Source: Candidatus Izemoplasmataceae bacterium (GTDB lineage: Bacteria > Bacillota_I > Bacilli_A > Izemoplasmatales > Izemoplasmataceae). From it: a stretch of 49,640 bases of DNA. The stretch is taken from assembly GCA_965656585.1 (NCBI GenBank), contig CBFHLD010000001.1:1-49640 (forward strand). Reading direction: 5' to 3'. Numbering within the stretch: the first letter of the stretch is position 1; every line of letters begins with the position of its first letter. Made by a program: the position numbers and the translations under genes. The notes beneath the pieces are model-generated. The model was not told the origin of the DNA, did no database searches, and saw only the letters and a list, made by a program, of their open reading frames with translations. Positions 12,180 through 48,878 of the stretch are shown in pieces.

Positions 12180-12187
12180 ACCCCTTT

Positions 12188-12505: not shown

Positions 12506-15478
<2,973 letters not shown>

Positions 15479-15487
15479 GAGCGTGCC

Positions 15488-18046
15488 ATGCAAGACGATT
15501 TAATTAAACGCGATAAGATGGATGACATTAATATTAGCGACGAGATGCGCACATCGTTCCTTTCCTATGCGATGAGTGTCATTGTTGCACGGGCCTTACC
15601 AGACGTAAGAGATGGCCTTAAACCCGTGCATCGCCGGATTTTATACGGCATGGAAGAACTCGGCGTTCAGCCGGAAAAATCCTATAAAAAAAGTGCCCGA
15701 ATTGTTGGGGATGTCATGGGGAAATACCACCCCCATGGGGACTCGGCGATTTATGACGCGATGGTCCGTTTGGCCCAACCTTTTTCTACCCGCTATCCAC
15801 TCGTTAACGGGCACGGAAACTTTGGGTCCATTGATGGTGATGGGGCAGCTGCGATGCGGTATACCGAAGCCAAAATGGCTAAAATTGCGGCCGAAATGCT
15901 ATCAGACATCAAGAAAAATACGATTGATTTTCAAGATAATTACGATGGGTCTGAAAGTGAACCCGTGGTCCTTCCTTCCAAATTTCCCAACTTACTCGTC
16001 AACGGTGCCACTGGGATTGCGGTCGGGATGGCCACCAATATTCCGCCCCACAACTTGAGTGAAATTGTCGATGGGCTTTTATTATTACTCGAAGACCCAG
16101 AGGCGGATTTAGATGCCCTGATGGAAAAAATCCCAGGGCCTGATTTCCCAACAGGTGGCATTTTAATCGGTAAAACCGGGCTCAGAGAAGCCTATGAAAA
16201 TGGGAATGGCTCAATCAAAATTCGTTCAAAAGCGGAAATCAGTGAAACCAAGACCGGGAAACAGATGATTACCGTCACCGAAATTCCCTATCAAGTCAAT
16301 AAAACCCGTCTGTTAGAACGAATCGCTGAACTTGCGAAAGAAAAACGCTTAGAAGGCATCACCGATCTTCGGGATGAATCCAACCGTGAAGGCATCAAAA
16401 TCATTTTAGAACTCCGTAAAGATGTCAGTGCGGAAGTCACATTGAATAATTTATTTAAATACACCCCACTGCAGACGTCTTACGGCATTAACATGTTGGC
16501 ACTTGTTGACAATAAACCGGTGGTTTTAGGACTCAAACAAGCGTTGGTGCATTATTTGGATCACCAATTTGAAGTGTTGGTGAGAAAAACGGCATTTGAC
16601 TTAAAAAAAGCTGAAGAACGCAAACACATTTTAGATGGACTGGTCATCGCCTTAAATAATATTGACGCAATCATCGAAATCATCCGTGGGGCGTACGATG
16701 ATGCGGAAGCGAAAATCATGGAGAGTTTTAAACTCTCGAGTGAACAAGCCAAAGCCATCTTAGAAATGCGGCTGCGCCGCCTCAGTGGCTTAGAGCGTGA
16801 AAAAATAGAGTCAGAACTCCAAGATTTAGCGCTCGCCATTGAAGAATTTCAAGCCATCCTTAACTCTAAAGACAAACAAAAAGAAGTCATCACAGACGAA
16901 CTCAACACATTGAAAAAAACGTTTGGGGATGAACGGCGGACGGAAATTTCCTTGGCGATTGATTTAGACATCGAAGATGAAGATTTAATTCCGGTGGAAG
17001 ATGTCATGATTGTCATCACGCAAGCGGGCTATACCAAACGGATGCCCATCGACTTAGCGCGGACGCAAAACCGTGGTGGGGTTGGGGTGACTGGGCTTAA
17101 AACCAATGACGATGATGTTTTAGAACACATCATTTTAACGTCCACCCATGATTACTTGCTCTTTTTCACAAACAAAGGGCGAGTCTATAAACTCAAAGGG
17201 TACAAAATCCCCAGTTACGGACGCAATTCCAAAGGACTCCCCTTGGTGAATATCTTAAACTTCGAAGAGGGTGAAACCTTACAATCGGTGTCCACCATTC
17301 ATGACTTTGATCATGATGAATACCTCTTCTTCGTGACCAAAAAAGGCCGGGTCAAACGGACATCCATCCGGGCCTACCAAAACATCCGGGCCAATGGGAT
17401 TCGGGCGATTGACCTCAAAGAAAATGATGAACTCTTAGCCGTACGTCACACAAGCGGCGACCAAGACCTCATTTTAGGGGCTTCTAACGGGAAAGCCATT
17501 CGTTTCAAAGAAACCGATGTCCGCGTCATGGGCCGCACCGCCGCCGGTGTTTCGGGCATGCGCCTCGCAGACGGTGAAGAAGTCATTGGGGCGGCTCAAA
17601 TTACCGATGATGAGCAAACCATTTTAGTGGTCTCAGAAAAAGGCTACGGCAAGCGCTCTAAAGCCGAACTATACCGCCAGCAAAAACGCGGTGGACGCGG
17701 CGTCAAGACCTTACAAGTGACTGAAAAAAATGGACCCCTGGTCAAACTGAGAAGCGTCAGCGATGACGATGATTTAGTCTTAGTGTCCAACAAAGGCATG
17801 ATGATTCGCATCCCCATCATTCAAATATCCGAATCCGGAAGAGCCACCCAAGGCGTCCGTTTAATGCGCATGCAAAAAGATCAAAACGTGGCCAACATCG
17901 CCATTGTGAAACATGAAGATGAACCGGAAGAAACGTTACTCGATGGTTTAGAAAAAACACCCCTTAAGGTTCAAGAGACTAGCGTAGAAGAAAAAAGTGA
18001 GTCCGCACCTCAAGAATCACTCTTAGATTTACTGGACGAAGAATAA
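15488..18046 (+). CDS. gyrA: DNA gyrase subunit A
   Basis: [19 protein letters not shown], the QRDR segment [20 protein letters not shown], and the active-site region AAAMRYTE. It has C-terminal beta-pinwheel repeats and an acidic tail. Length 852 aa. Confidence 0.97.
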
Positions 18047-36556: not shown

Positions 36557-37155
36557 ACTACCCCAAAGCCATCAATCAATTGATTGATCACTTCCGAAAA
36601 ATCCCTGGGGTCGGTCAAAAAACCGCCGAGCGCTATGCATTGTTTATATTAACCCAACTAGACCCTGAAGATACCCAAGCGTTTGGCTCAACCCTCATGG
36701 ATTTAAACGCATCCGTGAGACCCTGCAGCACGTGCGGATTTTTAACGGAAAATGACACGTGTGAGATCTGCCGTGATACGACGCGCGACTCAAATACGAT
36801 CATCGTCGTTGAAGAGGTCAAAGATGTGATTGTTTTTGAAAATACCCACACGTTTAATGGTCGTTATCATGTTTTAAATGGAGCCTTGTCCCCGAGTGAG
36901 GGCATCGCCCCTGAAGATTTAAATATCGCTTCATTAAAATCGCGTGTTGAATCTGAGTCCACCGAAGAACTGATCATCGCAACGAATTTCTCTGAAGCCG
37001 GAGAAACCACCGCACTTTACCTCAAACATATCTTTGAAAACAATCCTATAAACATTACACGCATCGGGTATGGATTACCCGCGGGTGGGAACATTTCTTA
37101 TGCCGATGAAATCACCTTAAACAAAGCCTTAGAAGGCCGCAAAAAAATGAACTAA
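36553..37155 (+). CDS. recR: Recombination protein RecR
   Basis: HhH motif IPGVGQKTAERYA, zinc finger CSTCGFLTENDTCEIC, and Toprim IIVVEEVKDV. ATGA overlaps ybaB. Confidence 0.96.
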   Translation: MNYPKAINQLIDHFRKIPGVGQKTAERYALFILTQLDPEDTQAFGSTLMDLNASVRPCSTCGFLTENDTCEICRDTTRDSNTIIVVEEVKDVIVFENTHTFNGRYHVLNGALSPSEGIAPEDLNIASLKSRVESESTEELIIATNFSEAGETTALYLKHIFENNPINITRIGYGLPAGGNISYADEITLNKALEGRKKMN

Positions 37156-37197
37156 ATCCACTTAACAAAACTTAATGATTTAAAGGAGCGCATTAGG

Positions 37198-37225
37198 TTG
37201 AGAATGAAGTGGATTTATTTATAAT
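37198..37225 (+). promoter_or_regulatory. Candidate promoter of the ABC/lipoprotein operon
   Basis: TTGAGA (37198-37203), a 16-nt spacer, then TATAAT (37220-37225). It would give a leader of about 90 nt. A second -10-like TATACT lies at 37275-37280 without a good -35. Confidence 0.4.
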
Positions 37226-37318: not shown

Positions 37319-38380
37319 TTGGAAATTAGATTAGAAAATTTAACCAAAGTTTTCACCAATAAAAAAACCACAAACACCCTTGCGGTTGACCAGCTCGATG
37401 TTACCATTCCATCCGGTAAACTCATCGGTTTATTGGGTCCATCAGGCTGTGGTAAATCCACAACACTTTACATGATATCTGGCCTATTGAAACCGACCGA
37501 TGGCAGTATCTATTTTGGAGACGATGATGTCACAACCGTACCCCCTGAAGAACGCGGGATCGGGTTAGTCTTTCAAAACTATGCACTCTATCCGCACATG
37601 ACGGTTTTACAAAATATTATGTTCCCATTAGAAAACTTAAAAGTGCCTAAAGAAGAAGCGATGGAGCGGGCTCAAAAAATCGCTGACTTAGTGGGTATTG
37701 GGGAATTGATGAGCCGTAAGCCTGCGCAACTTTCTGGGGGCCAACAACAAAGGGTCGCCATTGCCCGGGCACTTGTTAAAGAACCCCGCGTCTTATTATT
37801 GGATGAACCTTTATCCAATCTCGATGCTAGATTACGTTTACAAACCCGTGAAGAAATTCGCCGGATTCAAAGAGAAACAGGAATCACGACGATTTTTGTC
37901 ACCCACGATCAAGAAGAGGCAATGTCGATCTCCGATGAAATCATATTGATGGATTTTGGGGTCAAACAACAAATGGGAGCTCCCCAAAATGTCTATGACG
38001 AACCGGCCAATTTATTTGCGGCGAAGTTTTTAGGGACCCCCCCGATTAACTTGTTTGACGGAAAGATTTCTGCGAAGAAAATCAAACTTGGTAAAAGTGT
38101 TTTAGGAGAAACCAAAGAATCGCCTAAAGACATCGTCATTGGGATTCGTCCGGAAGGCTTTATCGTTCAAAAAGAAGGACCCATTCAAGCAGAGGTCGAA
38201 TTTGTCGAAACCATCGGCCGTGATACGACACTCATCATGATTGATCCAACCGACGAAACGAAACGCTTTAGAGCCATTGTGGATTCCGATCATAAAATTG
38301 AGGCGGGTCAAACAATCGCCTTAAATGTAAAACCCCATAAAATGTTTATCTTTAATCAAGAAACAGGAGAACGTCTTTAA
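37319..38380 (+). CDS. ABC transporter ATP-binding protein, MalK/UgpC/MsmK type (CUT1 family)
   Basis: TTG start with RBS aggag 10 nt upstream. Walker A GPSGCGKST, Q-loop, signature LSGGQQQRVAIARAL, Walker B LLLDEPLSNLD, H-loop, and a C-terminal regulatory (TOBE-like) domain. Confidence 0.93.
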   Translation: MEIRLENLTKVFTNKKTTNTLAVDQLDVTIPSGKLIGLLGPSGCGKSTTLYMISGLLKPTDGSIYFGDDDVTTVPPEERGIGLVFQNYALYPHMTVLQNIMFPLENLKVPKEEAMERAQKIADLVGIGELMSRKPAQLSGGQQQRVAIARALVKEPRVLLLDEPLSNLDARLRLQTREEIRRIQRETGITTIFVTHDQEEAMSISDEIILMDFGVKQQMGAPQNVYDEPANLFAAKFLGTPPINLFDGKISAKKIKLGKSVLGETKESPKDIVIGIRPEGFIVQKEGPIQAEVEFVETIGRDTTLIMIDPTDETKRFRAIVDSDHKIEAGQTIALNVKPHKMFIFNQETGERL

Positions 38381-39306
38381 TGTTAGAAGATAAGAGTAAT
38401 GTTAAAGCGTGGTTTTATTTAGCACCGGCCTTATTTTTGCTCACCATTTTTATTTTCTATCCCATTTTTAACGCACTATTTTTAGTGTTTTTAAGAGACT
38501 ACAATTATTTACAAGGGACCTGGGAAGGGTTCACCTTGTTCGAAAATTTCTTTTACGTATTTAGAAATCAAAACTTTACGCAAGCTCTCACCAACACCAT
38601 GATTATTACGTTTGTGTCTGTCCCCATTTCGGTGATCATCGCCTTGCTCATCTCGGTTTGGTTGAATTCTGTGCTTAAGCTTCGTGGCTTTTTCCAAACA
38701 ATTTTCTTCTTACCGTATGTGACCAATGCCATTGCCATCGGGATGGCCTTTGCCTTTTTGTTCAACCAAAACTACGGTCTGATTAACACCATGTTAGGGT
38801 GGGTCGGATTAAACCCGGTTAACTGGGTCGGTTTGGGTGCCACATGGGGCAATGCCATGTTTAGCTTATTGGTTTATGTGGTCTGGGCATCACTCGCTTT
38901 TAAAATCATGGTGTTTTTAAGTGGACTCCAAAACATCGACAAACAATATTACGATGCGGCGCGTGTGGATTCAACGAAGCGCTACCGCATCTTTAGACGG
39001 ATTACGATTCCCTTGTTATCCCCGATGATTTTTTACATTACGATTACTTCCTTTATCGGAGCTTTCAAAGCGTATACCCAAGTGATTGGGATGTTCGGGG
39101 TAAGACTTGGGCCACCAGGGAATGATAAATCACTCATTACCATAGTGGCGCTCGTCTATGACGCACTGGACCGGTCCGGGGTTCCTGGGGCTTTATCAGA
39201 GGCTGCAGCTACCGCAATCGTTTTATTCTTGATTACTTTAGTATTTACACTCATTAACATGCAAGTGAGTAAAAATCGTGTCCACTATTCAGGAGGAGGT
39301 AAATAA
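38380..39306 (+). CDS. ABC sugar-type permease (MalF/UgpA-like)
   Basis: Six TM segments and an EAA-like loop (DKQYYDAARVDSTKRYRIFRRITIPLL). TAATG coupling occurs at both ends. Confidence 0.9.
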   Translation: MLEDKSNVKAWFYLAPALFLLTIFIFYPIFNALFLVFLRDYNYLQGTWEGFTLFENFFYVFRNQNFTQALTNTMIITFVSVPISVIIALLISVWLNSVLKLRGFFQTIFFLPYVTNAIAIGMAFAFLFNQNYGLINTMLGWVGLNPVNWVGLGATWGNAMFSLLVYVVWASLAFKIMVFLSGLQNIDKQYYDAARVDSTKRYRIFRRITIPLLSPMIFYITITSFIGAFKAYTQVIGMFGVRLGPPGNDKSLITIVALVYDALDRSGVPGALSEAAATAIVLFLITLVFTLINMQVSKNRVHYSGGGK

Positions 39307-40202
39307 TGGTTTTAGATACCGTCACTTACGGCGATGAAAAACAAAACCGCCGCAAAGCCAGAATCCGGTTCTCCTTAGTGCTCACGATGCTTATCCTATT
39401 TGGGATTTTCGTCATTATTCCGTTTTATTGGATGATTTTAACCGCCTTTAAAACCGAAGCCCAAGTTTTAACCGCGCCACCCATTTTATGGTTAAACCCC
39501 GTTAATTGGCAGTTTTCGAACTTTGCTACGGCTATGGATACGGCCCCGTTCTTAAGGTATATGGCCAATACCGTTTTAGTCTCTTCCATCTCAACGGTCG
39601 GGACGGTCATTACCACAGTATTTGCTGCCTTCGCGTTTGCAAGGCTCAATTTTAATGGCCGTGATTTCCTCTTTATGATTTTAATCTCAACGATGATGAT
39701 TCCTGGTGAAATTTTTGTCATCACTAACTTCTTAACGGTGGTTGAACTCGGGTGGATTCAAAACCAAACCTACATGAATGCCATACTCGCGATGACACTT
39801 CCGTTTATGACCAGCATCTTTTATATCTTCTTTTTAAGACAATCCTTCAGACAAATACCAGATGAACTCTACTACGCGGCGAAAGTCGATGGGACGACCG
39901 ATCTCAAATACCTCTTTAAGATTATGGTTCCCATTGCGCTTCCCACCATCATTACCATCACGATCCTGAATGCGATGGGGACATGGAATGCCTACATATG
40001 GCCGCGCCTTGTCACCCAGCAACAAGAATTTAGATTGGTATCCAACGGATTGCGTGATGCCTTTAGTAATATTGCGGGACGCATACTTTATAACGAACAA
40101 ATGGCCGCCGCCTTACTCGTCACGTTCCCGCTCTTAGTGGTTTTCTTGTTACTTAAAAAATATATCATTCGTGGGGTTTCACGAAGTGGTATTAAAGGGT
40201 AA
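39306..40202 (+). CDS. ABC sugar-type permease (MalG/UgpE-like)
   Basis: Six TM segments and the EAA loop DELYYAAKVDGTTDLKYLFKIMVPIALP. Confidence 0.9.
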   Translation: MVLDTVTYGDEKQNRRKARIRFSLVLTMLILFGIFVIIPFYWMILTAFKTEAQVLTAPPILWLNPVNWQFSNFATAMDTAPFLRYMANTVLVSSISTVGTVITTVFAAFAFARLNFNGRDFLFMILISTMMIPGEIFVITNFLTVVELGWIQNQTYMNAILAMTLPFMTSIFYIFFLRQSFRQIPDELYYAAKVDGTTDLKYLFKIMVPIALPTIITITILNAMGTWNAYIWPRLVTQQQEFRLVSNGLRDAFSNIAGRILYNEQMAAALLVTFPLLVVFLLLKKYIIRGVSRSGIKG

Positions 40203-40235
40203 AACGAAATTAAAATAATTTGTGGAGGAAATTTC

Positions 40236-41624
40236 ATGAAAAAAGGATTACTGCTTTCTGTAACCTTATTATTAGTACTCACTTTGAGTGCCTGTTTAGG
40301 GGGCGGGGGCCGCGAAGAAACTACGGTCGATATTCCCGATGCACTCCCCAATGAACCGATTGAAATCGTCATTTGGCATGCCTTTGGCGAAGACAATCAA
40401 GCTTTACTGCAAGAGATGTTTGATTCATTCAATCAAGAATATCCCCAAGTCACCATCACCCAGTTGGGTCAAGGGGGGTATGATGGGCTGAGAGAATCAA
40501 CCATTCAATCGATCGTGGCAGGCACCACACCAACCATCGTCTTTGGTTACCCCGATCACTTCGTGGAGTATCTGAACGGGAATGCGTTAGTTCCCCTGGA
40601 TGAATACATCAATCACGACGTTCACGGTGTTGATCTCAATGATTTCGTCGATGGTTTCTTAGCAGAAAACCAACAGTATTTAGATGGCAATCAATATTCC
40701 ATGCCATTTGCTAAATCGACTGAAATGGTGGTTTACAACAAAGATTTCTTTGACGCTCAAGGCATTGAACTTTCCAGAACCACACCCCTCACTTGGGATG
40801 AACTGGAAGAACTAGCGGATGACATGGTCGGCAGTGGCGCCAACCAATGTGATTTCCTCTTTAACGCCGATAGCGCCTCCAACTTCTTCATCAACAGTTC
40901 ACGTCAATGGGACGCTGGGTATACGGACGGGGAAGGCAATATTTTAGTCGATAACGCCGATACTCGTGACATGCTCAATTACTTTGATGGGTTATTCGCC
41001 CAAGATGTTGTGAGTTTCCCGATTGAATGGGATGAAAATTATGGGTCTGAACCCTTTAAAGATGGACTCGTATGTATGTCTCAAGGCTCCACTGCTGGAA
41101 CGCGTTATAACATTCCAGATGAAGAAAGTCCATTTAATGAGATGGGAATCATCCCCGTCATTCAAAAAGATTTAGACAACGCATCAGTTATGCAACAAGG
41201 TCCGAACGTTGCGGTAATATCGGATGCGGACAATAACCAACGCTTAGCTGCATGGTTACTCTTGAAACATATGACCAACACAGAAAACACCGCTGATTTT
41301 GCCATGGCAACCGGATACGTTCCCGTGAGAAAATCCGGCTTTGAAACTGCGGAATATCAAGAATTCTTAAGCATTGTAGACAAATATGACTCTGAAGGCT
41401 TAGCGGGCTTAAGTCCGACTGAACGTCTTGATTTACCGTTTGCGATGGCCGCTACGGTTGCTTACGCCCAAGTGGATTGGTATGAATTTGATCCTGCCTT
41501 CGTCGGCCGTGTCACTTCATCAGGGGCACGTCAAGAATCTGGCCTTGCGTTTGAAGCGATTTATGCCGGAACTCGTACCGTTGAAGAAGCCATTGAACGG
41601 ATGTTGAATCAACTGGGGCAATAA
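40236..41624 (+). CDS. Family-1 extracellular solute-binding lipoprotein (CUT1 type); substrate unknown
   Basis: Signal peptide with lipobox LSAC. A Gly-rich tether is followed by a typical family-1 SBP start (IEIVIWHAFGEDNQALLQEMFDSFNQEYP). The protein is very acidic. Length 462 aa. Confidence 0.88.
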   Translation: MKKGLLLSVTLLLVLTLSACLGGGGREETTVDIPDALPNEPIEIVIWHAFGEDNQALLQEMFDSFNQEYPQVTITQLGQGGYDGLRESTIQSIVAGTTPTIVFGYPDHFVEYLNGNALVPLDEYINHDVHGVDLNDFVDGFLAENQQYLDGNQYSMPFAKSTEMVVYNKDFFDAQGIELSRTTPLTWDELEELADDMVGSGANQCDFLFNADSASNFFINSSRQWDAGYTDGEGNILVDNADTRDMLNYFDGLFAQDVVSFPIEWDENYGSEPFKDGLVCMSQGSTAGTRYNIPDEESPFNEMGIIPVIQKDLDNASVMQQGPNVAVISDADNNQRLAAWLLLKHMTNTENTADFAMATGYVPVRKSGFETAEYQEFLSIVDKYDSEGLAGLSPTERLDLPFAMAATVAYAQVDWYEFDPAFVGRVTSSGARQESGLAFEAIYAGTRTVEEAIERMLNQLGQ

Positions 41625-41643
41625 CCCATTAAGGATGATTTAG

Positions 41644-42510
41644 ATGAATAAAATCTTCACACTTCTCATCATAACGTTATTCAGTGGAATGCTTTTAGCG
41701 TGTGAAGAAACTGAACCAGAACCCACCGTTTTTGAGATTTCTACTGAATGGTCCGATGCGCTCGATTTACAAGCCGTTGAATATGAAGGTAGAGAATTCT
41801 TAAAAGATGGCATCGGGGAAGTCATGTTAGACCGATGTGTGGATGGGGACACCACGTATTTCACCTATGGAGACATCCGGCCATTCAGTGTCCGCTATTT
41901 AGGCATTGATACCCGGGAGTCGACCGCCCAAGTGCAGCCATGGGGGTTTGCCGCTTCGGATTATAATTGCGAACTCTTAACGGCCGCTGAAACCATTGTC
42001 TTAGAAATGGATGCTTCAGCGGGACGCACCGACAACTATGGCCGGTATCTTGCCTATGTATGGGCCGATGGAAAACTGGTCAATTTACAAATGGTTGAGC
42101 AAGCCTTTGCGCCGGCCGTTGGAACGGGCGGGCTCAAATATGGCGATGAACTCTTTGCGGCTCAAACGCATGCGAAACTCACAGGCCTTAAGATTTGGGG
42201 AGAAACGGACCCCAGCTTCATCGGAGATCCATTGGATGTCACCATGGAAGAATTACTGGAAAACCCCGAAAATTATCGCGACCGCTTTTTAAATGTCGAA
42301 GGGACCATCACGGCCCGTGATGGCGGCGACTTCTATTTTGGGAATGATTCAGGCAGCATTTTTGTCTTTACCCAAAGCCAAATCTCTTCGATTATTGCCG
42401 ATGAATTTACCGTGGGAAGTAACCTGATTCTCAATGACGTTTACTTAACGGACCGTAGCGGTGAATGGCAACTCACTAACTTCAATATCCGGGAAGTTAC
42501 ATTCCCTTAA
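41644..42510 (+). CDS. Lipoprotein with a staphylococcal-nuclease (SNase/thermonuclease) domain plus a C-terminal OB-like barrel
   Basis: Lipobox LLAC. VDGDT, VRYLGIDTRES, RTDNYGRYLAYVWADGKLVNLQMVEQAFA and LKIWGE parallel S. aureus nuclease A (IDGDT, [45 protein letters not shown]). The C-terminal segment is FLNVEGTITARDGGDFYFGNDSGSIFVF. Confidence 0.88.
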   Translation: MNKIFTLLIITLFSGMLLACEETEPEPTVFEISTEWSDALDLQAVEYEGREFLKDGIGEVMLDRCVDGDTTYFTYGDIRPFSVRYLGIDTRESTAQVQPWGFAASDYNCELLTAAETIVLEMDASAGRTDNYGRYLAYVWADGKLVNLQMVEQAFAPAVGTGGLKYGDELFAAQTHAKLTGLKIWGETDPSFIGDPLDVTMEELLENPENYRDRFLNVEGTITARDGGDFYFGNDSGSIFVFTQSQISSIIADEFTVGSNLILNDVYLTDRSGEWQLTNFNIREVTFP

Positions 42511-42536
42511 AAAAACGAATACATTAAAGTGGAGGA

Positions 42537-45176
42537 ATGGATTTGAAAAAATTATTATTGGCTTTTGCATTAGTGGCCGGACTCTTTACGCTTGCTGCTT
42601 GTGGCGGTGAGACTGAAGAACCGGTGAATCAAGATTTAGAATTGGTGGAAGATGCACGGGATTCGTTATTGCTTTCCGGGCTTGATTCAGTCACCAGCAA
42701 TTTGAATTTACCAAGCTCCGGACGGAACAGTACGACGATCACTTGGTCATCGTCTGATCCTTCCGTCATTGCGAATGACGGAACGGTGACACGCCCCGCA
42801 GAAGGCGAAGATAACGTGACCGTGACACTGACGGCAACCGTATCACTCAATGATGAAAGTGTGACACGTTCATTTGAGGCGTTTGTCTTAGCGTTTGAGC
42901 CCAGTAACTCATTTACAAACTTTACTGAGCTTTTTGAAGCATCTAATATCAATGATTTAATTACCGCTGAAGGCGTTGTATCAAGCGTCTTTGACGGTGG
43001 GTTCTTCATTTATGATGGTGCTGAGCACCTTGGGGTTTACATTGGTTCAGGCGGAACGGGCGGGGGTCTTGTCGACCTTGGCGATGAAGTCCGCGTCACA
43101 GGACTATATGCGCGTTACTACACACTCTATCAACTTGGGGATGTAGAAAACGTCGAAGTCGTGTCTTCAGGAAATTCTGTGGACATTGAAGCGACCCCAA
43201 TTACCATCGAAGCATGGAACGCACTCACGTTAGACGACCCACTGATTCATGGGGACTTTTATGAAGTCACCGGGACACTGGTTCAACAAGGCGAATTTAA
43301 CAACTTATTCTTAACGTCCAGTGAATCAGATGATGAAATCTTAGTCTATTACTACTCCGATGCGGATTCATTAACTGCGTTAGAAGAGTTTGTGGGCCGC
43401 ACCATTACTTTAGAGCTCGTTTATTATACGAATCACGCATCTAACGGCATCATGGCCTCTTATTATGGCGATGGGTCTGATGTGGTGGTGGCAGAACTCA
43501 CCGATGCGCAAAAACTTGAACTCGACGTTGAAGTCTTAGAAGGCATGTCCTTTGTAACATACGGGGATGCAGTTGAACTTCCTGCCACGGGCTCTAACGG
43601 AACGACCTTCTCAAACTGGGCTTCAGGCGACGTTGACCTCTTAGGCAATGATGGATCTTATGTTGCATTGCCTGCAACCCCAACCGATGTCACATTTACC
43701 GCAACCGCGACGTTGGGCGATGAAACTAGCGAGGTAGAAATTACCGTCCAATCTCTGGCTGAAATCAGCATTGAGGATGCTTTAGAAGTTGACCCAGGCG
43801 GTTATGTTTGGTTCTCGGGTAAAGTCGTCGATATTATTGATGGAAACAGTGGATTCTTCTTATATGACGAAACTGGTGTGATTTACGTCCGTGATACTGA
43901 CTTCTACAGTGAAAACTCTGAGGCTGTAGTTGTGGGAGATTCTTGGACCTTTGTCGGTGCCAGAACCGATTATCGCGGACTGCCTCAAGTGGCCTCCATT
44001 GATTTCTTTGAAGCCAGCGAGGAAACCTTTGCCGATGAACCTGCTCCAACCTATGCGACGGTTCAAGATATCGTTGAAGGAAACGTCGTTCCGGGCCAAA
44101 AATATTTAGTCTATGGAACCGCAACAACGGTCGAAGAACAATACACCAACTATGAGCTTCAAGATGGTGAATTTGCGATTCAACTGCACTTCCAAACAAA
44201 CAATTCAGCCATTGCTGAATTTAATGGCCAAGAAGTCATTTTAGAAGTCCGTCCATTCCAATGGGATAATGATCCAAGCTATGTGGCCTACTTCGGAACC
44301 GCCGAAGATGTCGATGCCGACATCAGTGATGATGAAAAAGCTGAAGTTGCTGCGAAAGCGGTTCGCTTACCCTTTGACCTTGATGGCAATGGCGTAGCCG
44401 ATACGGTGTATGACGATGTTACATTACCAACCACCGGCAAATTTGACCTTGCTTTATCGTGGAGTTCCAGTGCGTCGGGAAGCTTAGCAAATGATGGAAC
44501 CGTCACGTTAGGTGCGGAAGCGGTTGATGTCGTCTTAACCTTAACCGTAGGAACCGTGACCCGTGAATTCACCGTCGAAGTTGGACCTGAACCCATGGAT
44601 GTCACCAGTGCTCTTGCCGCTGAAGATGGCGATACCATCTTAGTGGAGGGCGTCGTGGTCAGTATTGATCCGCATACTAATGGATTCTTCATCCAAGATG
44701 CCGATGGAACCGGGATTTATGTCGGCGACTTCGGGGATGATGAATTGAAATCACAAGTTTCTGTAGGCGATAAAGTCTGGGTCTTAGGGACCCGTGATAC
44801 TTACACACGTTTTGGCAATAATCAAGCCCAAGTATGGCAAGCTGAGTATATTGCTCAAGCCTCTGAAGGGAACGACGTCTTTGTGACGAAAGATATGACC
44901 GGCGATCAAATCATTGCCGATTTCCCTAATGCCAACTCTAGACGTTTTGAAGCGACTTTAACTGTTGATGAGTATGATGGGTTCTCCCATGTATTCTTCT
45001 CCACAACGGATGAAACCCTTGAAATGCGCCTTACCTTTGACATTCGTAATGTTGAAGGATGGGATGAAGATACCTATCCTGTAGGTACTGAAATTACCAT
45101 TGCATTTACAACACAACGCATTCATTTCGATAATTACCGCGTGGTAGATGTTGTGATTGTCCAAGGAGCCGAATAA
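42537..45176 (+). CDS. Large acidic lipoprotein made of three tandem [Ig-like repeat + two OB-like beta-barrels] modules; no catalytic motif seen
   Basis: Lipobox LAAC. The Ig-like repeats are at aa 55-118, 345-405 and 627-682 (LPxxGxNxxxIxWSSxxxxxxxNDGxVT....DVxxTLTAT pattern). The OB-like segments carry (E/S)G.VV....(x)GFF(I/L).D..G.(I/V)Y(V/I) at aa 145-170, 427-452 and 703-730. TTG 42543 (GGAGG 7 nt upstream) is a more likely start than ATG 42537 (1-nt spacing). Confidence 0.8.
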   Translation: MDLKKLLLAFALVAGLFTLAACGGETEEPVNQDLELVEDARDSLLLSGLDSVTSNLNLPSSGRNSTTITWSSSDPSVIANDGTVTRPAEGEDNVTVTLTATVSLNDESVTRSFEAFVLAFEPSNSFTNFTELFEASNINDLITAEGVVSSVFDGGFFIYDGAEHLGVYIGSGGTGGGLVDLGDEVRVTGLYARYYTLYQLGDVENVEVVSSGNSVDIEATPITIEAWNALTLDDPLIHGDFYEVTGTLVQQGEFNNLFLTSSESDDEILVYYYSDADSLTALEEFVGRTITLELVYYTNHASNGIMASYYGDGSDVVVAELTDAQKLELDVEVLEGMSFVTYGDAVELPATGSNGTTFSNWASGDVDLLGNDGSYVALPATPTDVTFTATATLGDETSEVEITVQSLAEISIEDALEVDPGGYVWFSGKVVDIIDGNSGFFLYDETGVIYVRDTDFYSENSEAVVVGDSWTFVGARTDYRGLPQVASIDFFEASEETFADEPAPTYATVQDIVEGNVVPGQKYLVYGTATTVEEQYTNYELQDGEFAIQLHFQTNNSAIAEFNGQEVILEVRPFQWDNDPSYVAYFGTAEDVDADISDDEKAEVAAKAVRLPFDLDGNGVADTVYDDVTLPTTGKFDLALSWSSSASGSLANDGTVTLGAEAVDVVLTLTVGTVTREFTVEVGPEPMDVTSALAAEDGDTILVEGVVVSIDPHTNGFFIQDADGTGIYVGDFGDDELKSQVSVGDKVWVLGTRDTYTRFGNNQAQVWQAEYIAQASEGNDVFVTKDMTGDQIIADFPNANSRRFEATLTVDEYDGFSHVFFSTTDETLEMRLTFDIRNVEGWDEDTYPVGTEITIAFTTQRIHFDNYRVVDVVIVQGAE

Positions 45177-45182
45177 CACATT

Positions 45183-45212
45183 AAAAAGGGCTACTTCGGT
45201 AGCCCTTTTTTT
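45183..45212 (+). terminator. Strong intrinsic terminator after the 879-aa lipoprotein gene
   Basis: aaaaagggctac-ttcg-gtagcccttttt with a T7 run. It is followed by an extended -10-like tgatacaat (45224-45232). Confidence 0.85.
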
Positions 45213-45257
45213 CTTGAAACCTATGATACAATGGGCTGTTAATGAAAGGATGTACTT

Positions 45258-46175
45258 ATGTTTAGATGGATCATATTGGTCCTGGTTTTAACCTTAACTG
45301 CGTGTCAAAATCAGCCCCAAGTTTTACCCGATTTAGCGGGACAAACCCAAGAAGAAATCGAAGTGACTTTAGAAGCCTTCGATTTAGAAGTGGATTTTAT
45401 TGAGCGAACCTTTGTAACACTTGATGAATCACGAGAATTTATTGAATATGGTCAGCTCAAAAGTGTCGGAGATCCGATTGAGCCAGGGGATTATATTACC
45501 GTGATAGTGAGTGCGTCTAAAATCGACGAGAGTATTTATTATGTGACATCTTTATTGCCGTATGATGGTCCTAGACTTTTAGAGTCGTTCTTTGATTTTC
45601 CGTATGTGATCGACCATCCGGATGGCCTCAAAGGTGGCGGAAAAGTCTTTGAAGTCACCTTGCAAGATAACAATGGGTGTGTGGACGGTGATACCGCACG
45701 GTTTGAAGTTCCAGAGGATTTTCAAGCGTATACCAACACGCCATTTATCAGTGTTCGCTTCTTGAATTTTGATACTGCAGAAACCTTTGATGGCGGTGAA
45801 GAAGTGTTTGGTAAACCGGCTTCCGTATTTACGTGCGATGCGTTACAAGAGACTTCCGCTATTTATCTTCAAACCGACCCTGGAGATTTTCTTTTTGACC
45901 GCTACGGTCGGACCCTCGCGTGGGTGTGGATTGAAGTCGACGGAAATATCGAACTCCTTAATTATCACGTTGTCCGGGCGGGCCTCGGCGAAGTGATGTA
46001 TTTATACGGAGCGGGTGAAACCGACACGACCGTCGTGGATGGGTTAACCTACACTGAATGGATGTACGAAGCTGAACGCTTGGCTGAAAACGAATCCCTT
46101 GGGATTCATGGCGACTTACTGGATTATTACTGGGATTACGAGAACGATGCGCCCAATCCGTACACGTGGCCTTAG
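45258..46175 (+). CDS. Lipoprotein with an N-terminal PASTA-like module and an SNase/thermonuclease domain
   Basis: Lipobox LTAC. LPDLAGQTQEEIEVTLEAFDLEV....GDPIEPGDYITVIVS is PASTA-like. The SNase motifs are VDGDT, VRFLNFDTAET, FDRYGRTLAWVW and LGIHGD. Confidence 0.82.
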   Translation: MFRWIILVLVLTLTACQNQPQVLPDLAGQTQEEIEVTLEAFDLEVDFIERTFVTLDESREFIEYGQLKSVGDPIEPGDYITVIVSASKIDESIYYVTSLLPYDGPRLLESFFDFPYVIDHPDGLKGGGKVFEVTLQDNNGCVDGDTARFEVPEDFQAYTNTPFISVRFLNFDTAETFDGGEEVFGKPASVFTCDALQETSAIYLQTDPGDFLFDRYGRTLAWVWIEVDGNIELLNYHVVRAGLGEVMYLYGAGETDTTVVDGLTYTEWMYEAERLAENESLGIHGDLLDYYWDYENDAPNPYTWP

Positions 46176-46183
46176 GAGTATGT

Positions 46184-47110
46184 ATGATTAAAACGATTAA
46201 AAACTGGATTGAATCTGCCGAAACCATTGTTATTCACCGGCATCATGAACCCGATTATGATGCCTTAGGATCACAGTGGGGACTTAAGTATTTAATTGAA
46301 GATAATTATCCTGGAAAAAAAGTATACGTTTTGGGTTTAAATAATCATCTCAATGCTTTACCGCCCATGGATGAAGTGGCAGACACCATTTTTGGGGACG
46401 CCTTAGGGATTGTGGTGGACGTATCACAAACGCACCGCGTGGACGATGCGCGTGTTTTAAAAACACCTAAAAAAATTGTCATCGATCACCATCAAAATCC
46501 ATCTGATTTTGCGGATCTTTTTTATCATCAACCTCAGTCGATCGCCGCCGCTGAAGTCATTACACTTTTAGCCTTAGAACTTGGTTGGAAAATTACACAC
46601 CGTAGCGCCCATGCTTTGATGCTTGGCATCATTTCTGACAGTGGCCGTTTCTTGTATAAAGGTGTCACAGACAAAACATTTGAAGCTGCCAACATCTTAA
46701 TGAAAACAGGACTGGATTTAAATGCGATGTATGAATCCATGTATACAGATTCATTGAGTTATAAACGCTTGAGAGGGTACGCCTTAAGACAATTTCAAGT
46801 TCTAAAAAGTGGCGTTGCCATTTTAAGAAATGGCAAAGAAATTAAAGAGCGTTACGGGGTCAGCGAGTTCACGGTATCCAGAGGACTCGTGAATGTGATG
46901 GGCCAACTTGAAGGGGTAGAAATGTGGGTTAATTTCACCGAAACCGACTCCGGAGAGGTTCTTGTCGAACTGAGAAGCCGGGACGTACCAGTGAATGATG
47001 TCGCCCTCAAATATGGCGGGGGTGGTCATTTACTCGCTGCCGGATGTATATTAAAAAATTGGAACGATAGCCACCAACTGATTCACGATTTAGAAAGGAA
47101 ACTCGCATGA
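46184..47110 (+). CDS. DHH/DHHA1-family phosphoesterase (NrnA-like oligonucleotidase / pAp phosphatase), paralog 1
   Basis: DHH motifs I-IV are HRHHEPDYDALGS, VVDVS, VIDHHQN and GIISDSGRF. The DHHA1 motif is GGGGHLLAAG. I chose ATG 46184 (RBS aggag 5 nt upstream) over the track's GTG 46166. Confidence 0.88.
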   Translation: MIKTIKNWIESAETIVIHRHHEPDYDALGSQWGLKYLIEDNYPGKKVYVLGLNNHLNALPPMDEVADTIFGDALGIVVDVSQTHRVDDARVLKTPKKIVIDHHQNPSDFADLFYHQPQSIAAAEVITLLALELGWKITHRSAHALMLGIISDSGRFLYKGVTDKTFEAANILMKTGLDLNAMYESMYTDSLSYKRLRGYALRQFQVLKSGVAILRNGKEIKERYGVSEFTVSRGLVNVMGQLEGVEMWVNFTETDSGEVLVELRSRDVPVNDVALKYGGGGHLLAAGCILKNWNDSHQLIHDLERKLA

Positions 47111-48081
47111 GTGAACTTCAACCGAAATACAAAGAATTACTCGATATCATAAAGGCCCATGAAACCATAATTATCATTCCCCACGCCCGTCCCGATGGCG
47201 ATTGCCTCGGCAGTGCCTTGGGGTTAAAAGATATCATCACAACCAGTTATCCCGAGAAAAAAGTTTTTGCAATCGGCGATGAAACTGGCTACTTAAAATT
47301 TTTGGGTCAACTTGATGTCATTGAAGATGATGTGTTCAAGGAGGCTTTGGTGATTGCGGTCGATACCGCCAATCAAGAACGCTTGGCCGATCAACGATAC
47401 ACGCTCGGCAAAACCTTAGTTAAAATCGATCATCACATTAATATTGATTCGTATGGGGATTTAGAGATTGTCGACACCACTTCTCCAGCTGCCGCGCAGA
47501 TGATTATGGACTTTTATACCATCAATGAGTCCAAACTAAATATGACCGCCCACGGGGCTCAAGCATTATTTACTGGAATCTTAACGGACACGGGTCGGTT
47601 CAAATACGATGGGGTGAGTCAAAGGACTTTTCTTTCGGTTGCGAAGTTATATGAGAATGGCCTCGACCCAAAGCCGGTCTATGAGGCCTTAGAAGTCATG
47701 AGTGAATCATTGATTCGCTTTAGAGGATATGTGTTACTCAATTATCAAAAAACAGATGATGGTGTGGCCTACATTAAAATCACGAAAGATTTGTGTGATG
47801 AATTTAAAGTCACTACCGAAGAAGCATCCAGTTTAGTGAATGAACTCTCGCATTTTGAAGATGCTCCCATATGGGTCCTTTTCAATGAGTATGAAGAAGA
47901 AAAAGTTGTAAGGGCTAGAATTCGCAGTAAAGGACCAAACATCTCAGTCACCGCCAATGGGTTTAATGGCGGGGGCCATGCGAAAGCCAGTGGGGCTAAC
48001 TTAGGGACCTGGGAAGTTGCGGATGAATTGTTAAAAGCCTTGAATGAAGTTGCTAAAACTTATAAATCAGAACAAAAATAG
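47107..48081 (+). CDS. DHH/DHHA1-family phosphoesterase (NrnA-like), paralog 2
   Basis: DHH motifs are PHARPDGDCLGS, AVDTA, KIDHHIN and GILTDTGRF. The DHHA1 motif is NGGGHAKASG. ATGA overlaps paralog 1. Confidence 0.9.
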   Translation: MSELQPKYKELLDIIKAHETIIIIPHARPDGDCLGSALGLKDIITTSYPEKKVFAIGDETGYLKFLGQLDVIEDDVFKEALVIAVDTANQERLADQRYTLGKTLVKIDHHINIDSYGDLEIVDTTSPAAAQMIMDFYTINESKLNMTAHGAQALFTGILTDTGRFKYDGVSQRTFLSVAKLYENGLDPKPVYEALEVMSESLIRFRGYVLLNYQKTDDGVAYIKITKDLCDEFKVTTEEASSLVNELSHFEDAPIWVLFNEYEEEKVVRARIRSKGPNISVTANGFNGGGHAKASGANLGTWEVADELLKALNEVAKTYKSEQK

Positions 48082-48103
48082 AGCCTTATGCTCTATTTTT
48101 TTT
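48077..48103 (+). terminator. Intrinsic terminator after the second DHH gene
   Basis: aatagagc-cttat-gctctatt followed by T8. The stop codon lies within the stem. Confidence 0.8.
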
Positions 48104-48212: not shown

Positions 48213-48878
48213 ATGGCGCGCATATTAGTCGTTGAAGATGAACCCAGTATTCAAAAAATGGTGGCCTATGACATCAAAGAGTTGGGCCATGAAGTAGACG
48301 TAACTAGCAATGGGTCTGAGGGGTTGCAAAAAGCGATGAATACGAGTTATGACATCATCCTTTTGGACTTAATGTTACCGGGCATGAGTGGGTTGGAGAT
48401 TGCTCAAATCTTAAGAAAGAATAATCACAGTGCGCATATCATTATGCTCACTGCCATGGATGAAGAATACCAAAAAATTGAAGGCTTCGAACAAGGCGCC
48501 GATGACTACATCACAAAGCCTTTTTCACCCCGTGAACTCACGGCTCGGATCAAAGCCGTCTTAAGGCGACGGAATAATGAAAACAACGAAGAGATACTCA
48601 TGCATCAAAACATCAAGCTCAACACATTAAGTTACGAAGCTTTTATCGAAGACCATCCGTTGAATCTCACCCTCAAAGAATTTGAACTACTTCAATACTT
48701 GATTCGTAATAAAGGGGTCGTGGTTTCAAGAGATCAACTCCTCAGAAAACTTTGGGGTTACAGTTACGATGGAGATACCAGGGTCGTCGATGTGCATATC
48801 TTTAAACTGAGAGAGAAAATGGATCCTCACGCGGAGATGATTAAAACCGTCCGTGGGATTGGCTATAAATTGGTCTAA
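48213..48878 (+). CDS. OmpR/PhoB-family response regulator (receiver + winged-helix domain)
   Basis: The receiver has ILVVEDE, the phospho-acceptor context IILLDLMLPG, and LTA..., KPF. The winged-helix output domain has LTLKEFELLQYL...VSRDQLL...VVDVHIFKLREKM...IKTVRGIGYKL. Confidence 0.93.
   Translation: MARILVVEDEPSIQKMVAYDIKELGHEVDVTSNGSEGLQKAMNTSYDIILLDLMLPGMSGLEIAQILRKNNHSAHIIMLTAMDEEYQKIEGFEQGADDYITKPFSPRELTARIKAVLRRRNNENNEEILMHQNIKLNTLSYEAFIEDHPLNLTLKEFELLQYLIRNKGVVVSRDQLLRKLWGYSYDGDTRVVDVHIFKLREKMDPHAEMIKTVRGIGYKLV

What the first reader, a model, noticed from the sequence alone, without database searches (positions are those of the whole stretch)
42537..45176. 879-aa lipoprotein built from a threefold [Ig-like + OB-like + OB-like] module with no catalytic domain
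Seen in sequence: after the lipobox (LAAC) the protein is a triplication of a module of about 280 aa. Each module begins with a short Ig-like repeat: LNLPSSGRNSTTITWSSSDPSVIANDGTVTRPAEGEDNVTVTLTATV (nt ~42699-42890), VELPATGSNGTTFSNWASGDVDLLGNDGSY..DVTFTATATL (nt ~43569-43751), and VTLPTTGKFDLALSWSSSASGSLANDGTVTLGAEAVDVVLTLTV (nt ~44415-44582). Each repeat is followed by a barrel carrying a shared signature: AEGVVSSVFDGGFFIYDGAEHLGVYIG, FSGKVVDIIDGNSGFFLYDETGVIYVRD, or VEGVVVSIDPHTNGFFIQDADGTGIYVGD. A second barrel-like segment follows each. The same signature occurs in the C-terminal tail of the upstream SNase lipoprotein (VEGTITARDGGDFYFGNDSGSIFVF), so the two genes share a module. Inference: this is a multivalent, surface-tethered polymer-binding scaffold, most plausibly for DNA or RNA, feeding the flanking nucleases. 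The repeat type resembles the short 'atrophied' bacterial Ig-like repeat seen in many Firmicutes surface proteins. The protein is extremely acidic, which is unusual for a nucleic-acid binder and leaves room for a divalent-cation-bridged or entirely different ligand.
Basis: partly seen in the sequence, partly recalled or inferred. Interest (0 to 1): 0.75.

Follow-up and report, generated by a model that had tools for sequence, protein, structure and literature searches.

The report
Surface DNA-grabbing lipoprotein, no enzyme domain
This gene encodes a membrane-anchored surface protein made of three copies of an Ig-like spacer plus a double OB barrel, which most likely holds environmental DNA next to two neighbouring nucleases; the same protein family and role were already proposed for DNA-eating Izemoplasma bacteria in 2021.

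Summary
ORF 42537-45176 encodes a lipoprotein (lipobox LAAC) built from three modules of about 280 aa, and profile-profile comparison of the modules gives E = 1e-27 to 4e-44. Each module is a Pfam aBig_2 Ig-like domain followed by two five-stranded barrels with OB topology (AlphaFold2, mean pLDDT 89.7). No catalytic domain is present.

The double barrel is a remote relative of Pfam DUF5689. Its nearest solved folds are the mammalian HIN-200 dsDNA-binding domains, though only at TM 0.40-0.45. The same double barrel is fused directly to SNase nucleases in many relatives.

The organism is a Candidatus Izemoplasmataceae bacterium. The gene order (ABC transporter, binding protein, SNase, this protein, PASTA-SNase, two NrnA-like genes) is conserved as far as Haloplasma. 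It matches the 'DNA-degradation locus' of Wasmund et al. 2021, who already proposed that the orthologous 'large protein' holds DNA at the cell surface.

DNA binding remains untested, and the whole family is extremely acidic. This is a new member of a known kind, a short variant without the lamin-tail domain. Interest is moderate to low.

The parts
42537..45176 (+). Whole ORF: lipoprotein of 879 aa (probably 877 aa from TTG 42543), built as [aBig_2 + OB-a + OB-b] x3
42537..42602 (+). Signal peptide with lipobox L-A-A-C (Cys22)
   Evidence: Sequence. Cys22 and the KK motif are conserved in at least 90% of homologues.
42681..42893 (+). aBig_2 Ig-like domain 1 (residues 49-119)
   Evidence: Pfam PF20578, 94.2 bits. 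Beta-sandwich in the model. Foldseek match to the AbnA GH43 Ig-like domain, 40% identity.
42897..43172 (+). OB-a of module 1 (residues 121-212), carrying the signature AEGVVSSVFDGGFFIYDGAEHLGVYIG
   Evidence: b1-b2-b3-helix-b4-b5 in the model. hhalign to OB2a gives 8e-19 and to OB3a 6e-16.
43173..43472 (+). OB-b of module 1 (residues 213-312)
   Evidence: OB topology in the model. hhalign to OB2b gives 2e-16.
43551..43760 (+). aBig_2 Ig-like domain 2 (residues 339-408)
   Evidence: Pfam PF20578, 30.8 bits
43761..44024 (+). OB-a of module 2 (residues 409-496)
   Evidence: Weak Pfam RMI2 and tRNA_anti-codon hits lie here.
44025..44306 (+). OB-b of module 2 (residues 497-590)
44373..44588 (+). 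aBig_2 Ig-like domain 3 (residues 613-684)
   Evidence: Pfam PF20578, 37.6 bits
44589..44870 (+). OB-a of module 3 (residues 685-778)
44871..45173 (+). OB-b of module 3 (residues 779-879), the most divergent barrel
   Evidence: OB topology. Only weak profile matches to OB1b and OB2b. The whole-module alignment M1/M3 does cover it.
45183..45217 (+). Intrinsic terminator-like hairpin GGGCTAC-TTCG-GTAGCCC followed by T7, directly after the stop codon
41644..42510 (+). Upstream SNase lipoprotein. The catalytic motifs DGDT, RYLGIDTRE and YGR are present. A single OB domain forms the C-terminal tail (residues about 197-288, nt 42232-42507).
   Evidence: Pfam SNase E = 2e-15. Tail matches the OB profiles at 4e-10. 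AF2 model has pLDDT 87.8.
45258..46175 (+). Downstream lipoprotein with a PASTA-like N-terminus and an SNase domain
   Evidence: Pfam SNase E = 2.5e-7 and weak PASTA. Orthologous to the 'surface-anchored nuclease' peg.647 of Wasmund et al..
37319..41624 (+). ABC importer: MalK-type ATPase (37319-38380), two permeases (38380-39306, 39306-40202) and a lipoprotein solute-binding protein (40236-41624)
   Evidence: The same order is seen in L006 and L008.
46166..48081 (+). Two overlapping DHH/DHHA1 (NrnA-like) genes without signal peptides, followed by a terminator-like hairpin at 48074-48100

Best explanation
**What it is.** The protein is a non-catalytic surface lipoprotein of a wall-less Candidatus Izemoplasmataceae bacterium. 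It acts as the polymer-binding component of an extracellular nucleic-acid scavenging locus.

**Shown**
- An N-terminal lipid anchor is followed by three modules. Each module is an aBig_2 Ig-like spacer plus a DUF5689-like tandem of two OB folds.
- The gene sits between two intact SNase-type lipoprotein nucleases. An ABC importer with its binding protein lies upstream, and two cytoplasmic NrnA-like phosphoesterases lie downstream.

**Inferred**
- The six OB folds bind DNA (possibly also RNA) without sequence specificity and with avidity.
- This keeps the polymer at the membrane surface while the SNases cut it.
- The products (3'-phosphorylated mono- and oligonucleotides) are captured by the binding protein, imported, and finished in the cytoplasm by the NrnA-like enzymes.
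- Because every OB domain carries a net charge of -12 to -17, contact with the phosphate backbone would have to rely on a few semi-conserved Arg residues, on aromatic residues, and probably on bridging Mg2+/Ca2+ rather than on a basic surface.
For: **Architecture**
- Lipobox, triplication and Ig plus two OB folds per module.

**The barrels are nucleic-acid-type OB folds**
- The double-OB profile matches RPA2 (6i52_B, E = 2.5e-5), RPA14, STN1 and an EEP-nuclease chain among PDB sequences.
- Family members reach Pfam tRNA_anti-codon at 4.8e-22.
- The NCBIfam ExeM/NucH N-terminal region matches at 5e-6.

**The double OB is DUF5689-like**
- P0066 module 3 covers PF18942 positions 20-217 of 217, with 43.1 bits against a cut-off of 28.6.
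- Profile-profile comparison of the window's OB pairs with the DUF5689-annotated tails of SNase homologues gives probability 98.7%, E = 3.8e-16, over 172 columns.

**Fusion in cis**
- About 25 of the 120 listed SNase1 homologues carry SNase plus DUF5689.
- The window's own SNase1 carries one such OB.

**Fold**
- The best Foldseek PDB hits are HIN-200 dsDNA-binding domains: p204 HINab-dsDNA at E = 1e-9, then IFI16, AIM2, p202 and MNDA, all with probability 1.0.

**Context**
- The same cassette is present in Izemoplasma sp. (34% identity) and in Haloplasma contractile (29% identity).
- It is identical in order to the published Izemoplasmatales DNA-degradation locus.
- No glycoside hydrolase partner was seen in 37 sampled family members.

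**Literature**
- Izemoplasmatales incorporate carbon from 13C-DNA (PMC8289736).
- A homologous locus in cultured Hujiaoplasma is induced by DNA/RNA (PMC10470597).
- Bacteroides DdbD (DUF5689) is the predicted DNA-binding partner in a genetically required DNA-utilisation locus.
- A Riemerella DUF5689 protein is essential for natural transformation.

**Acidity is not discriminating**
- Both SNases and the binding protein have pI about 4.05. Cytoplasmic ORFs have pI 5-6.5.
Against: - No member of this family, nor DdbD, has been shown biochemically to bind DNA.
- Each OB domain has a net charge of -12 to -17 and only 1-7 basic residues.
- No basic or aromatic position is conserved across all modules. 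The invariant columns are glycines.
- The whole family is acidic, with K+R of 2.5-5.8%. This is unlike HIN or RPA binding surfaces.
- TM-scores to HIN domains are only 0.40-0.45 with rmsd about 7 A. The match may reflect 'two OB folds in a row' rather than a shared binding geometry.
- The window's protein does not itself reach the Pfam thresholds for any OB family or for DUF5689.
- The ABC transporter is of the sugar / glycerol-3-phosphate type.
Confidence: 0.65

Rival explanations
1. It is a docking or spacing scaffold rather than a DNA binder. The OB and Ig domains hold the SNases, the binding protein or other lipoproteins in an ordered surface assembly (a cellulosome-like 'nucleosome-degrading' complex), or they simply form a protective acidic surface coat on a wall-less cell.
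For: - OB folds also mediate protein-protein contacts, as in RPA32/RPA14 and STN1, which are among the best sequence matches.
- No basic binding surface is conserved.
- Two of the 37 sampled relatives carry dockerin domains.
- The protein is long, repetitive and anchored by lipid.
Against: - The same double OB is fused covalently to SNase catalytic domains. A docking module would be pointless there, whereas a substrate-binding module would make sense.
- DUF5689 proteins are linked genetically to DNA uptake and DNA use in Bacteroidota.
- The structural neighbours that cover the whole double barrel are DNA binders.
Confidence: 0.15
2. It binds a different polymer or ion, for example a polysaccharide, or it acts as a divalent-cation reservoir for the Ca2+/Mg2+-dependent nucleases. 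The extreme acidity would be the functional feature.
For: - The protein has 156 acidic against 32 basic residues.
- aBig_2 is common in glycoside hydrolases.
- The transporter is of the sugar / G3P type.
- One source labelled a homologue 'glycosidase'.
Against: - No glycoside hydrolase was found in the conserved neighbourhood or among fusion partners of the double OB.
- The 'glycosidase' label rests only on the Ig-like domain.
- Acidity is shared by all four lipoproteins of the locus, including the nucleases, so it is a property of the exposed proteome and not of this protein.
- The OB subfamily is the RPA / tRNA-anticodon / DUF5689 type.
Confidence: 0.1
3. It is a cryptic nuclease. SNase is itself an OB-fold enzyme, and the published orthologue was annotated with an 'endonuclease I domain'.
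For: - Wasmund et al. labelled peg.646 as having a C-terminal endonuclease I domain from CDD.
- JGI names some homologues 'predicted extracellular nuclease'.
Against: - No nuclease family matches in Pfam or NCBIfam.
- The LTD-bearing homologues P0021, P0027 and P0043 show only aBig_2 and LTD.
- The SNase domains of the two neighbours do not align with the barrels.
- No acidic or basic catalytic constellation is conserved. Only glycines are invariant.
- Foldseek's top 50 hits contain no nuclease.
Confidence: 0.03

Closest known systems
'Large protein' (peg.646, 1,049 aa) of the Ca. Izemoplasmatales 'DNA-degradation loci' (Wasmund et al. 2021, Nat Microbiol, PMC8289736, Fig. 6 and Supplementary text)
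   Same: - It is clearly homologous in sequence.
- It sits at the same position in the same gene order: G3P-type binding protein, SNase, large protein, surface-anchored nuclease, two NrnA genes.
- It has YhcR-like OB domains.
- The authors proposed the same role: holding polymeric DNA near the cell for the secreted nucleases.
   Different: - The window's protein is shorter and has no lamin-tail domain and no nuclease-like region.
- The published description rested on CDD hits only. It did not resolve the threefold [aBig_2 + double OB] plan or the DUF5689 / HIN-like relationship.
DUF5689 (PF18942) proteins: Bacteroides thetaiotaomicron DdbD and Riemerella anatipestifer RA0C_RS04920
   Same: - The tandem OB module is homologous at profile level.
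- The proteins are lipoproteins.
- They lie in a locus with surface nucleases and an importer.
- The predicted fold resembles the p202 HIN dsDNA-binding domain.
- They are linked to DNA use or DNA uptake.
   Different: [quoted passage not shown]
- Here three modules with Ig spacers sit on the cytoplasmic membrane of a wall-less monoderm, next to an ABC importer.
- The window's protein does not reach the PF18942 threshold itself.
HIN-200 domains (AIM2, IFI16, p202, p204, MNDA)
   Same: They consist of two consecutive OB folds and are the best structural matches in the PDB (E down to 1e-9, probability 1.0). They bind the DNA backbone without sequence specificity.
   Different: - No sequence relationship was detected.
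- TM-scores are only 0.40-0.45.
- HIN domains use a basic surface, whereas these modules are strongly acidic.
- The setting differs: cytosolic mammalian immune sensors versus bacterial surface lipoproteins.
OB-fold-bearing extracellular nucleases (B. subtilis YhcR, Shewanella ExeM / NucH family, streptococcal SpnA type)
   Same: - They carry N-terminal OB folds of the same broad subfamily. The NCBIfam ExeM/NucH region matches at E = 5e-6, and the EEP-domain chain 9sf8_A matches at E = 0.011.
- They are surface-attached.
- LTD partners occur in longer homologues.
   Different: - Those proteins carry a catalytic domain (SNase, EEP or 5'-nucleotidase) in the same chain. This one has none.
- The score of 25.6 bits is far below the ExeM/NucH cut-off of 300.
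Mycoplasma SNase-ABC transporter operons (M. agalactiae MAG_5030-5070; mhp379 type)
   Same: A lipoprotein SNase is co-transcribed with a sugar-type ABC importer and a lipoprotein binding protein. The operon was proposed to import nucleic-acid precursors (PMC3585158).
   Different: No aBig_2/OB protein is described in those operons. The Izemoplasma/Haloplasma cassette has this extra binding protein and a second nuclease.

Membership tests
Bacterial lipoprotein (Lgt/Lsp substrate) | N-terminal signal peptide ending in a lipobox [LVI][ASTVI][GAS]C | tested here: met
   The sequence KKLLLAFALVAGLFTLAAC carries Cys22. The Cys is conserved in at least 90% of 48 homologues. 98 of 126 top representatives have a lipobox-like motif.
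aBig_2 (PF20578, atrophied bacterial Ig domain) | HMM score at or above the gathering cut-off of 27 bits | tested here: met
   The three repeats score 94.2, 30.8 and 37.6 bits when scanned separately.
OB fold | Five-stranded closed beta-barrel with a helix between strands 3 and 4 | tested here: met
   All six barrels in the AF2 model (pLDDT about 90) have the order b1-b2-b3-helix-b4-b5. Foldseek hits are HIN, Cdc13/Stn1 and similar OB proteins.
OB fold | Sequence-level match to a curated nucleic-acid-binding OB family | tested here: inconclusive
   The window protein scores 17.2 bits on tRNA_anti-codon, below the cut-off of 27. The family profile matches RPA2 at 2.5e-5 in PDB sequences. 8 of 37 relatives match tRNA_anti-codon, the best at 4.8e-22.
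DUF5689 (PF18942) | HMM score at or above 28.6 bits over the module of about 200 aa | tested here: not met
   The window protein and its three modules give no PF18942 hit. The homologous module of P0066 does, at 43.1 bits. Profile-profile comparison with DUF5689-annotated SNase tails gives E = 3.8e-16. This makes it a remote homologue, not a member by the curated cut-off.
HIN-200 domain | Tandem OB pair superposable as one unit on a solved HIN domain (TM at least 0.5) | tested here: not met
   Foldseek gives probability 1.0 and E down to 1e-9, but TM normalised to the target is 0.39-0.45 and rmsd is about 7 A.
HIN-200 domain | Basic dsDNA-binding surface across both OB folds and the linker | tested here: not met
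   Net charge is -12 to -17 per OB, and no basic column is conserved across modules.
Izemoplasmatales DNA-degradation-locus 'large protein' (Wasmund 2021) | Position between the SNase gene and the surface-anchored nuclease gene, with the ABC transporter upstream and two NrnA genes downstream | tested here: met
   The window gene order matches scaffold_255 peg.643-649 and also L006.
Izemoplasmatales DNA-degradation-locus 'large protein' (Wasmund 2021) | Lamin-tail domain and C-terminal nuclease-like domain | tested here: not met
   The window protein has no LTD and no nuclease hit. Longer homologues have an LTD but no Pfam nuclease domain.
ExeM/NucH extracellular endonuclease (NF033681) | Score at or above 300 bits, with an EEP catalytic domain present | tested here: not met
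   The score is 25.6 bits and covers only profile positions 35-95, the OB region. No EEP domain is present.
Nucleic-acid-binding protein (functional class) | Measured binding to DNA or RNA | not testable with these tools
   This needs EMSA or anisotropy with recombinant protein. No such data were found for any family member in the papers read.

The most novel reading that the evidence does not exclude
The DUF5689-like tandem OB is a very widespread bacterial surface module for capturing extracellular DNA (at least 12,000 clusters at 50% identity). In this lineage it binds the polyanion from a strongly acidic surface through bridging divalent cations. The threefold Izemoplasma protein would be a true DNA receptor, serving not only feeding but also DNA uptake (competence) in wall-less bacteria, in parallel with the Riemerella DUF5689 protein that is essential for natural transformation.
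Probability: 0.15. Interest if true: 0.65.

Novelty: new member of a known kind. Interest (0 to 1): 0.3.

Why it matters
Extracellular DNA is a major phosphorus, nitrogen and carbon pool in sediments, and Izemoplasmatales are among the few organisms shown to consume it. This protein family is the likely substrate-capture component of their DNA-degradation locus, playing for DNA the role that surface glycan-binding proteins play in polysaccharide-utilisation loci.

The analysis sharpens the published description in three ways:
- It gives a clean domain map: a lipid anchor plus three [aBig_2 + double OB] units and no enzyme domain.
- It links the double OB to DUF5689 and DdbD of Bacteroidota and to SNase fusions.
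- It shows that the module is very common.

It also points to a concrete biophysical question: how can a module with a net charge of about -25 to -30 bind a polyanion? None of this changes the current picture of the system. The value is a better-defined target for a binding experiment.

Tried and rejected
- **BLASTP self-comparison.** It found no internal repeat. The triplication is visible only with profiles.
- **Single-sequence hhalign of the SNase1 tail against the modules.** It was weak and ambiguous. The same test with a 44-sequence profile was clear.
- **The search for homologous proteins with the OB-pair alignment A2.** It returned only one fragment and gave no partner-domain statistics. 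I replaced it with the exhaustive representative search and a Pfam scan of 37 sampled hits.
- **Cryptic nuclease.** Rejected: no family hit, no conserved catalytic residues, and no structural match to nucleases.
- **CBM or adhesin fold.** Rejected. CBM_35_2 (E = 0.45) and Cadherin-like (E = 0.59) are noise-level hits. Foldseek matches to S-layer, cadherin and titin chains have low probability and only reflect strings of beta domains.
- **Acidity as evidence against nucleic-acid binding.** Rejected as a discriminator, because the adjacent nucleases have the same composition.
- **C-terminus of the published peg.646.** I tried to retrieve it to test the claimed endonuclease I domain, but the sequence is truncated in the stored supplement. 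LTD-bearing homologues were scanned instead.
- **Surface electrostatics.** These could not be computed because model coordinates are not exposed to the scripting tool.


Full report
**1. The observation**

The N-terminus (KKLLLAFALVAGLFTLAAC) is a lipoprotein signal peptide. The Cys is conserved in at least 90% of 48 aligned homologues.

GGAGG at 42531-42535 lies 1 nt from ATG 42537 but 7 nt from TTG 42543. The closest homologues start MKKLLLA. The true start is therefore probably TTG 42543, giving 877 aa.

A plain BLASTP self-comparison shows no repeats. I cut the 48-sequence family alignment (A1) into three modules and compared them profile to profile. The results were E = 3.5e-44 (M1/M2), 4.6e-34 (M1/M3) and 1.3e-27 (M2/M3), with alignments that run through the Ig-like domain and both barrels. 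The triplication is far beyond chance.

Each Ig-like repeat on its own passes the Pfam aBig_2 (PF20578) threshold of 27 bits, with 94.2, 30.8 and 37.6 bits.

**2. Fold**

AlphaFold2 on A1 gave a confident model (mean pLDDT 89.7, with 607 residues at 90 or above).
- After a short linker and helix, each module is a beta-sandwich followed by two barrels.
- Each barrel has the strand order b1-b2-b3-helix-b4-b5, which is the OB topology.
- No globular region is left unassigned.
- Pfam and NCBIfam find no catalytic domain.

Foldseek against the PDB gave these hits:
- Top hits are HIN-200 domains, which are tandem OB folds that bind dsDNA. The p204 HINab-dsDNA complex scores E = 1e-9, and IFI16, AIM2, p202 and MNDA score 1e-4 to 1e-5, all with probability 1.0.
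- The Ig-like domain of the GH43 arabinanase AbnA matches at 40% identity, which accounts for the aBig_2 part.
- Cdc13/Stn1 also appears.
- TM-scores to single HIN domains are only 0.39-0.45 with rmsd about 7 A. The resemblance is 'two OB folds in a row', not a proven common geometry.

At sequence level, a profile of the double barrel (A2) matches RPA2 (E = 2.5e-5), RPA14, STN1, YgiW and the N-terminus of an EEP-domain protein among PDB chains.

GFF-I-D ... G-I-Y-V) is the hydrophobic core pattern of strands 1-3 of this OB subfamily. The only invariant columns are glycines.

The OB-a copies are closely related to each other (E about 1e-16 to 1e-19). OB1b and OB2b match at 2e-16. OB-a and OB-b are only distantly related, the best pair reaching 1.9e-7.

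**3. What the double barrel is related to**

An exhaustive HMM search with A2 against 1.84 billion representatives found 12,185 proteins at E of 1e-3 or better and 446 at 1e-30 or better. The top hits are mostly lipoproteins and are acidic.

A Pfam scan of 37 sampled hits gave these partner domains:

| Pfam family | Members matching (of 37) |
|---|---|
| aBig_2 | 30 |
| LTD | 13 |
| tRNA_anti-codon OB (best E = 4.8e-22) | 8 |
| DUF5689 (best E = 2e-39) | 2 |
| PLDc_2 | 1 |
| SBP_bac_8 | 1 |
| Glycoside hydrolases | 0 |

Further links to DUF5689:
- Module 3 of homologue P0066 covers Pfam DUF5689 almost end to end (positions 20-217 of 217, 43.1 bits).
- About 25 of the 120 listed homologues of the upstream SNase carry SNase plus DUF5689, with or without aBig_2.
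- The DUF5689-annotated tails of those nucleases align with the window's OB pairs at probability 98.7%, E = 3.8e-16, over 172 columns.

The window's own SNase1 has one such OB as its C-terminal tail. The profile match to OB1a is 4e-10, and the AF2 model (pLDDT 87.8) shows OB topology.

**4. Organism and context**

The nearest genomes are Candidatus Izemoplasmataceae MAGs, at 92-94% identity.

The gene lies in a co-directional cluster:
- a MalK-type ABC ATPase, two permeases and a lipoprotein binding protein;
- the SNase lipoprotein;
- this gene;
- a PASTA-SNase lipoprotein;
- two NrnA-like DHH/DHHA1 genes without signal peptides.

A promoter-like site at 37198-37225 precedes the ATPase gene. 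A strong terminator-like hairpin follows this gene at 45183-45217, and another follows the second DHH gene.

The same cassette occurs around a 34%-identical homologue in Izemoplasma sp. and a 29%-identical one in Haloplasma contractile.

It is the 'DNA-degradation locus' of Wasmund et al. 2021 (PMC8289736, Fig. 6). Their scaffold_255 peg.643-649 has the same order, and peg.646 and peg.647 are visibly homologous to this protein and to the downstream nuclease. [quoted passage not shown]

In cultured Hujiaoplasma, a homologous locus is induced by DNA/RNA.

In Bacteroides thetaiotaomicron:
- the DUF5689 lipoprotein DdbD is the predicted DNA-binding partner of a transporter in the genetically required ddbABCDEF DNA-utilisation locus;
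- its model was likewise found to resemble p202 HIN.

A Riemerella DUF5689 protein is essential for natural transformation.

Mycoplasma operons that couple an SNase lipoprotein to a sugar-type ABC importer are the reduced version of the same theme.

**5. The acidity problem**

The protein has pI 4.05, with 156 D+E against 32 K+R. Each OB carries a net charge of -12 to -17, and no basic position is conserved across modules. All 48 homologues are equally acidic.

This is unlike HIN or RPA. However, the two SNases and the binding protein of the locus have the same pI (about 4.05) and K+R of 4.8-6.2%. Both SNases keep their catalytic motifs and must bind nucleic acid. Cytoplasmic ORFs of the window have pI 5-6.5 and K+R of 10-13%.

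Acidity is therefore a trait of the exposed proteome in this lineage. It does not argue specifically against nucleic-acid binding, but it does imply an unusual, probably cation-assisted, binding mode. That step is inference.

**6. Verdict**

Binding itself is untested for the whole family.

The protein is a shorter member of a family already described and already given this hypothetical role; it lacks the LTD. The 'endonuclease I' label in that description is not reproduced by Pfam in LTD-bearing homologues.

New here are the exact threefold domain plan, the DUF5689 / HIN-like identity of the double barrel, its abundance, and the family-wide acidity.

I rate it a new member of a known kind, with interest about 0.3.

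Noticed in passing
window 42531-42545: The Shine-Dalgarno GGAGG is 1 nt from the listed ATG start (42537) but 7 nt from TTG 42543. Close homologues begin MKKLLLA (one begins with V). The real start is probably TTG 42543, giving 877 aa.
   Followed up: partly
window 40236-46175: All four lipoproteins of the locus (binding protein, SNase1, the 879-aa protein, SNase2) have pI about 4.05 and K+R of 3.6-6.2%. Cytoplasmic ORFs of the window have pI 5-6.5 and K+R of 10-13%. The exposed proteome is selectively acidic, including enzymes that must bind DNA.
   Followed up: partly
window 46166-48081: Two overlapping NrnA-like DHH/DHHA1 genes without signal peptides directly follow the surface nucleases. 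This suggests that the sugar/G3P-type ABC importer brings in short oligonucleotides or nucleotides that are finished in the cytoplasm. The transporter's substrate is unknown.
   Followed up: no
window 37155-37225 and 48213-48878; L006 17893-23627: Upstream of the ABC operon there is a direct repeat TTAACA-N4-TTAATG just before a good promoter-like site (TTGAGA-16-TATAAT). An OmpR-type response regulator follows the locus. In Izemoplasma sp. (L006), PhoU, PstS and PstCAB genes come next. Regulation of the locus by phosphate is possible.
   Followed up: no
window 45183-45217: A strong intrinsic-terminator-like hairpin (GGGCTAC-TTCG-GTAGCCC plus T7) lies directly after the ORF, followed by TGATACAAT (extended -10 like) before the SNase2 gene. 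The cluster may be two transcription units.
   Followed up: no
window 9573-18046: The sizes and N-termini of the ORFs here look like dnaA, dnaN, recF, gyrB and gyrA, so the window probably includes the chromosomal origin region. dnaX, ybaB and recR lie immediately upstream of the DNA-degradation locus, as in L006.
   Followed up: no
P0021, P0027, P0043 (homologues); PMC8289736 supplement: The published orthologue was described as having a 'C-terminal endonuclease I domain'. LTD-bearing homologues of 1,200-1,460 aa show only aBig_2 and LTD in Pfam, and the LTD ends about 50 aa from the C-terminus of P0043. A real nuclease domain in this family is doubtful.
   Followed up: partly
representatives sampled in alignment A3: Among 37 sampled proteins carrying the double OB, one is fused to an SBP_bac_8 solute-binding domain, one to a PLD-like (PLDc_2) domain, two carry T9SS sorting tails and two carry dockerins. 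The module has spread well beyond Mycoplasmatota.
   Followed up: no
PDB 9sf8_A / 9sf9_A: A recently solved 'endonuclease/exonuclease/phosphatase domain-containing protein' has an N-terminal segment (residues about 19-86) that matches the OB-a profile (E = 0.011). It may be the nearest solved structure of a nuclease-attached OB of this subfamily.
   Followed up: no
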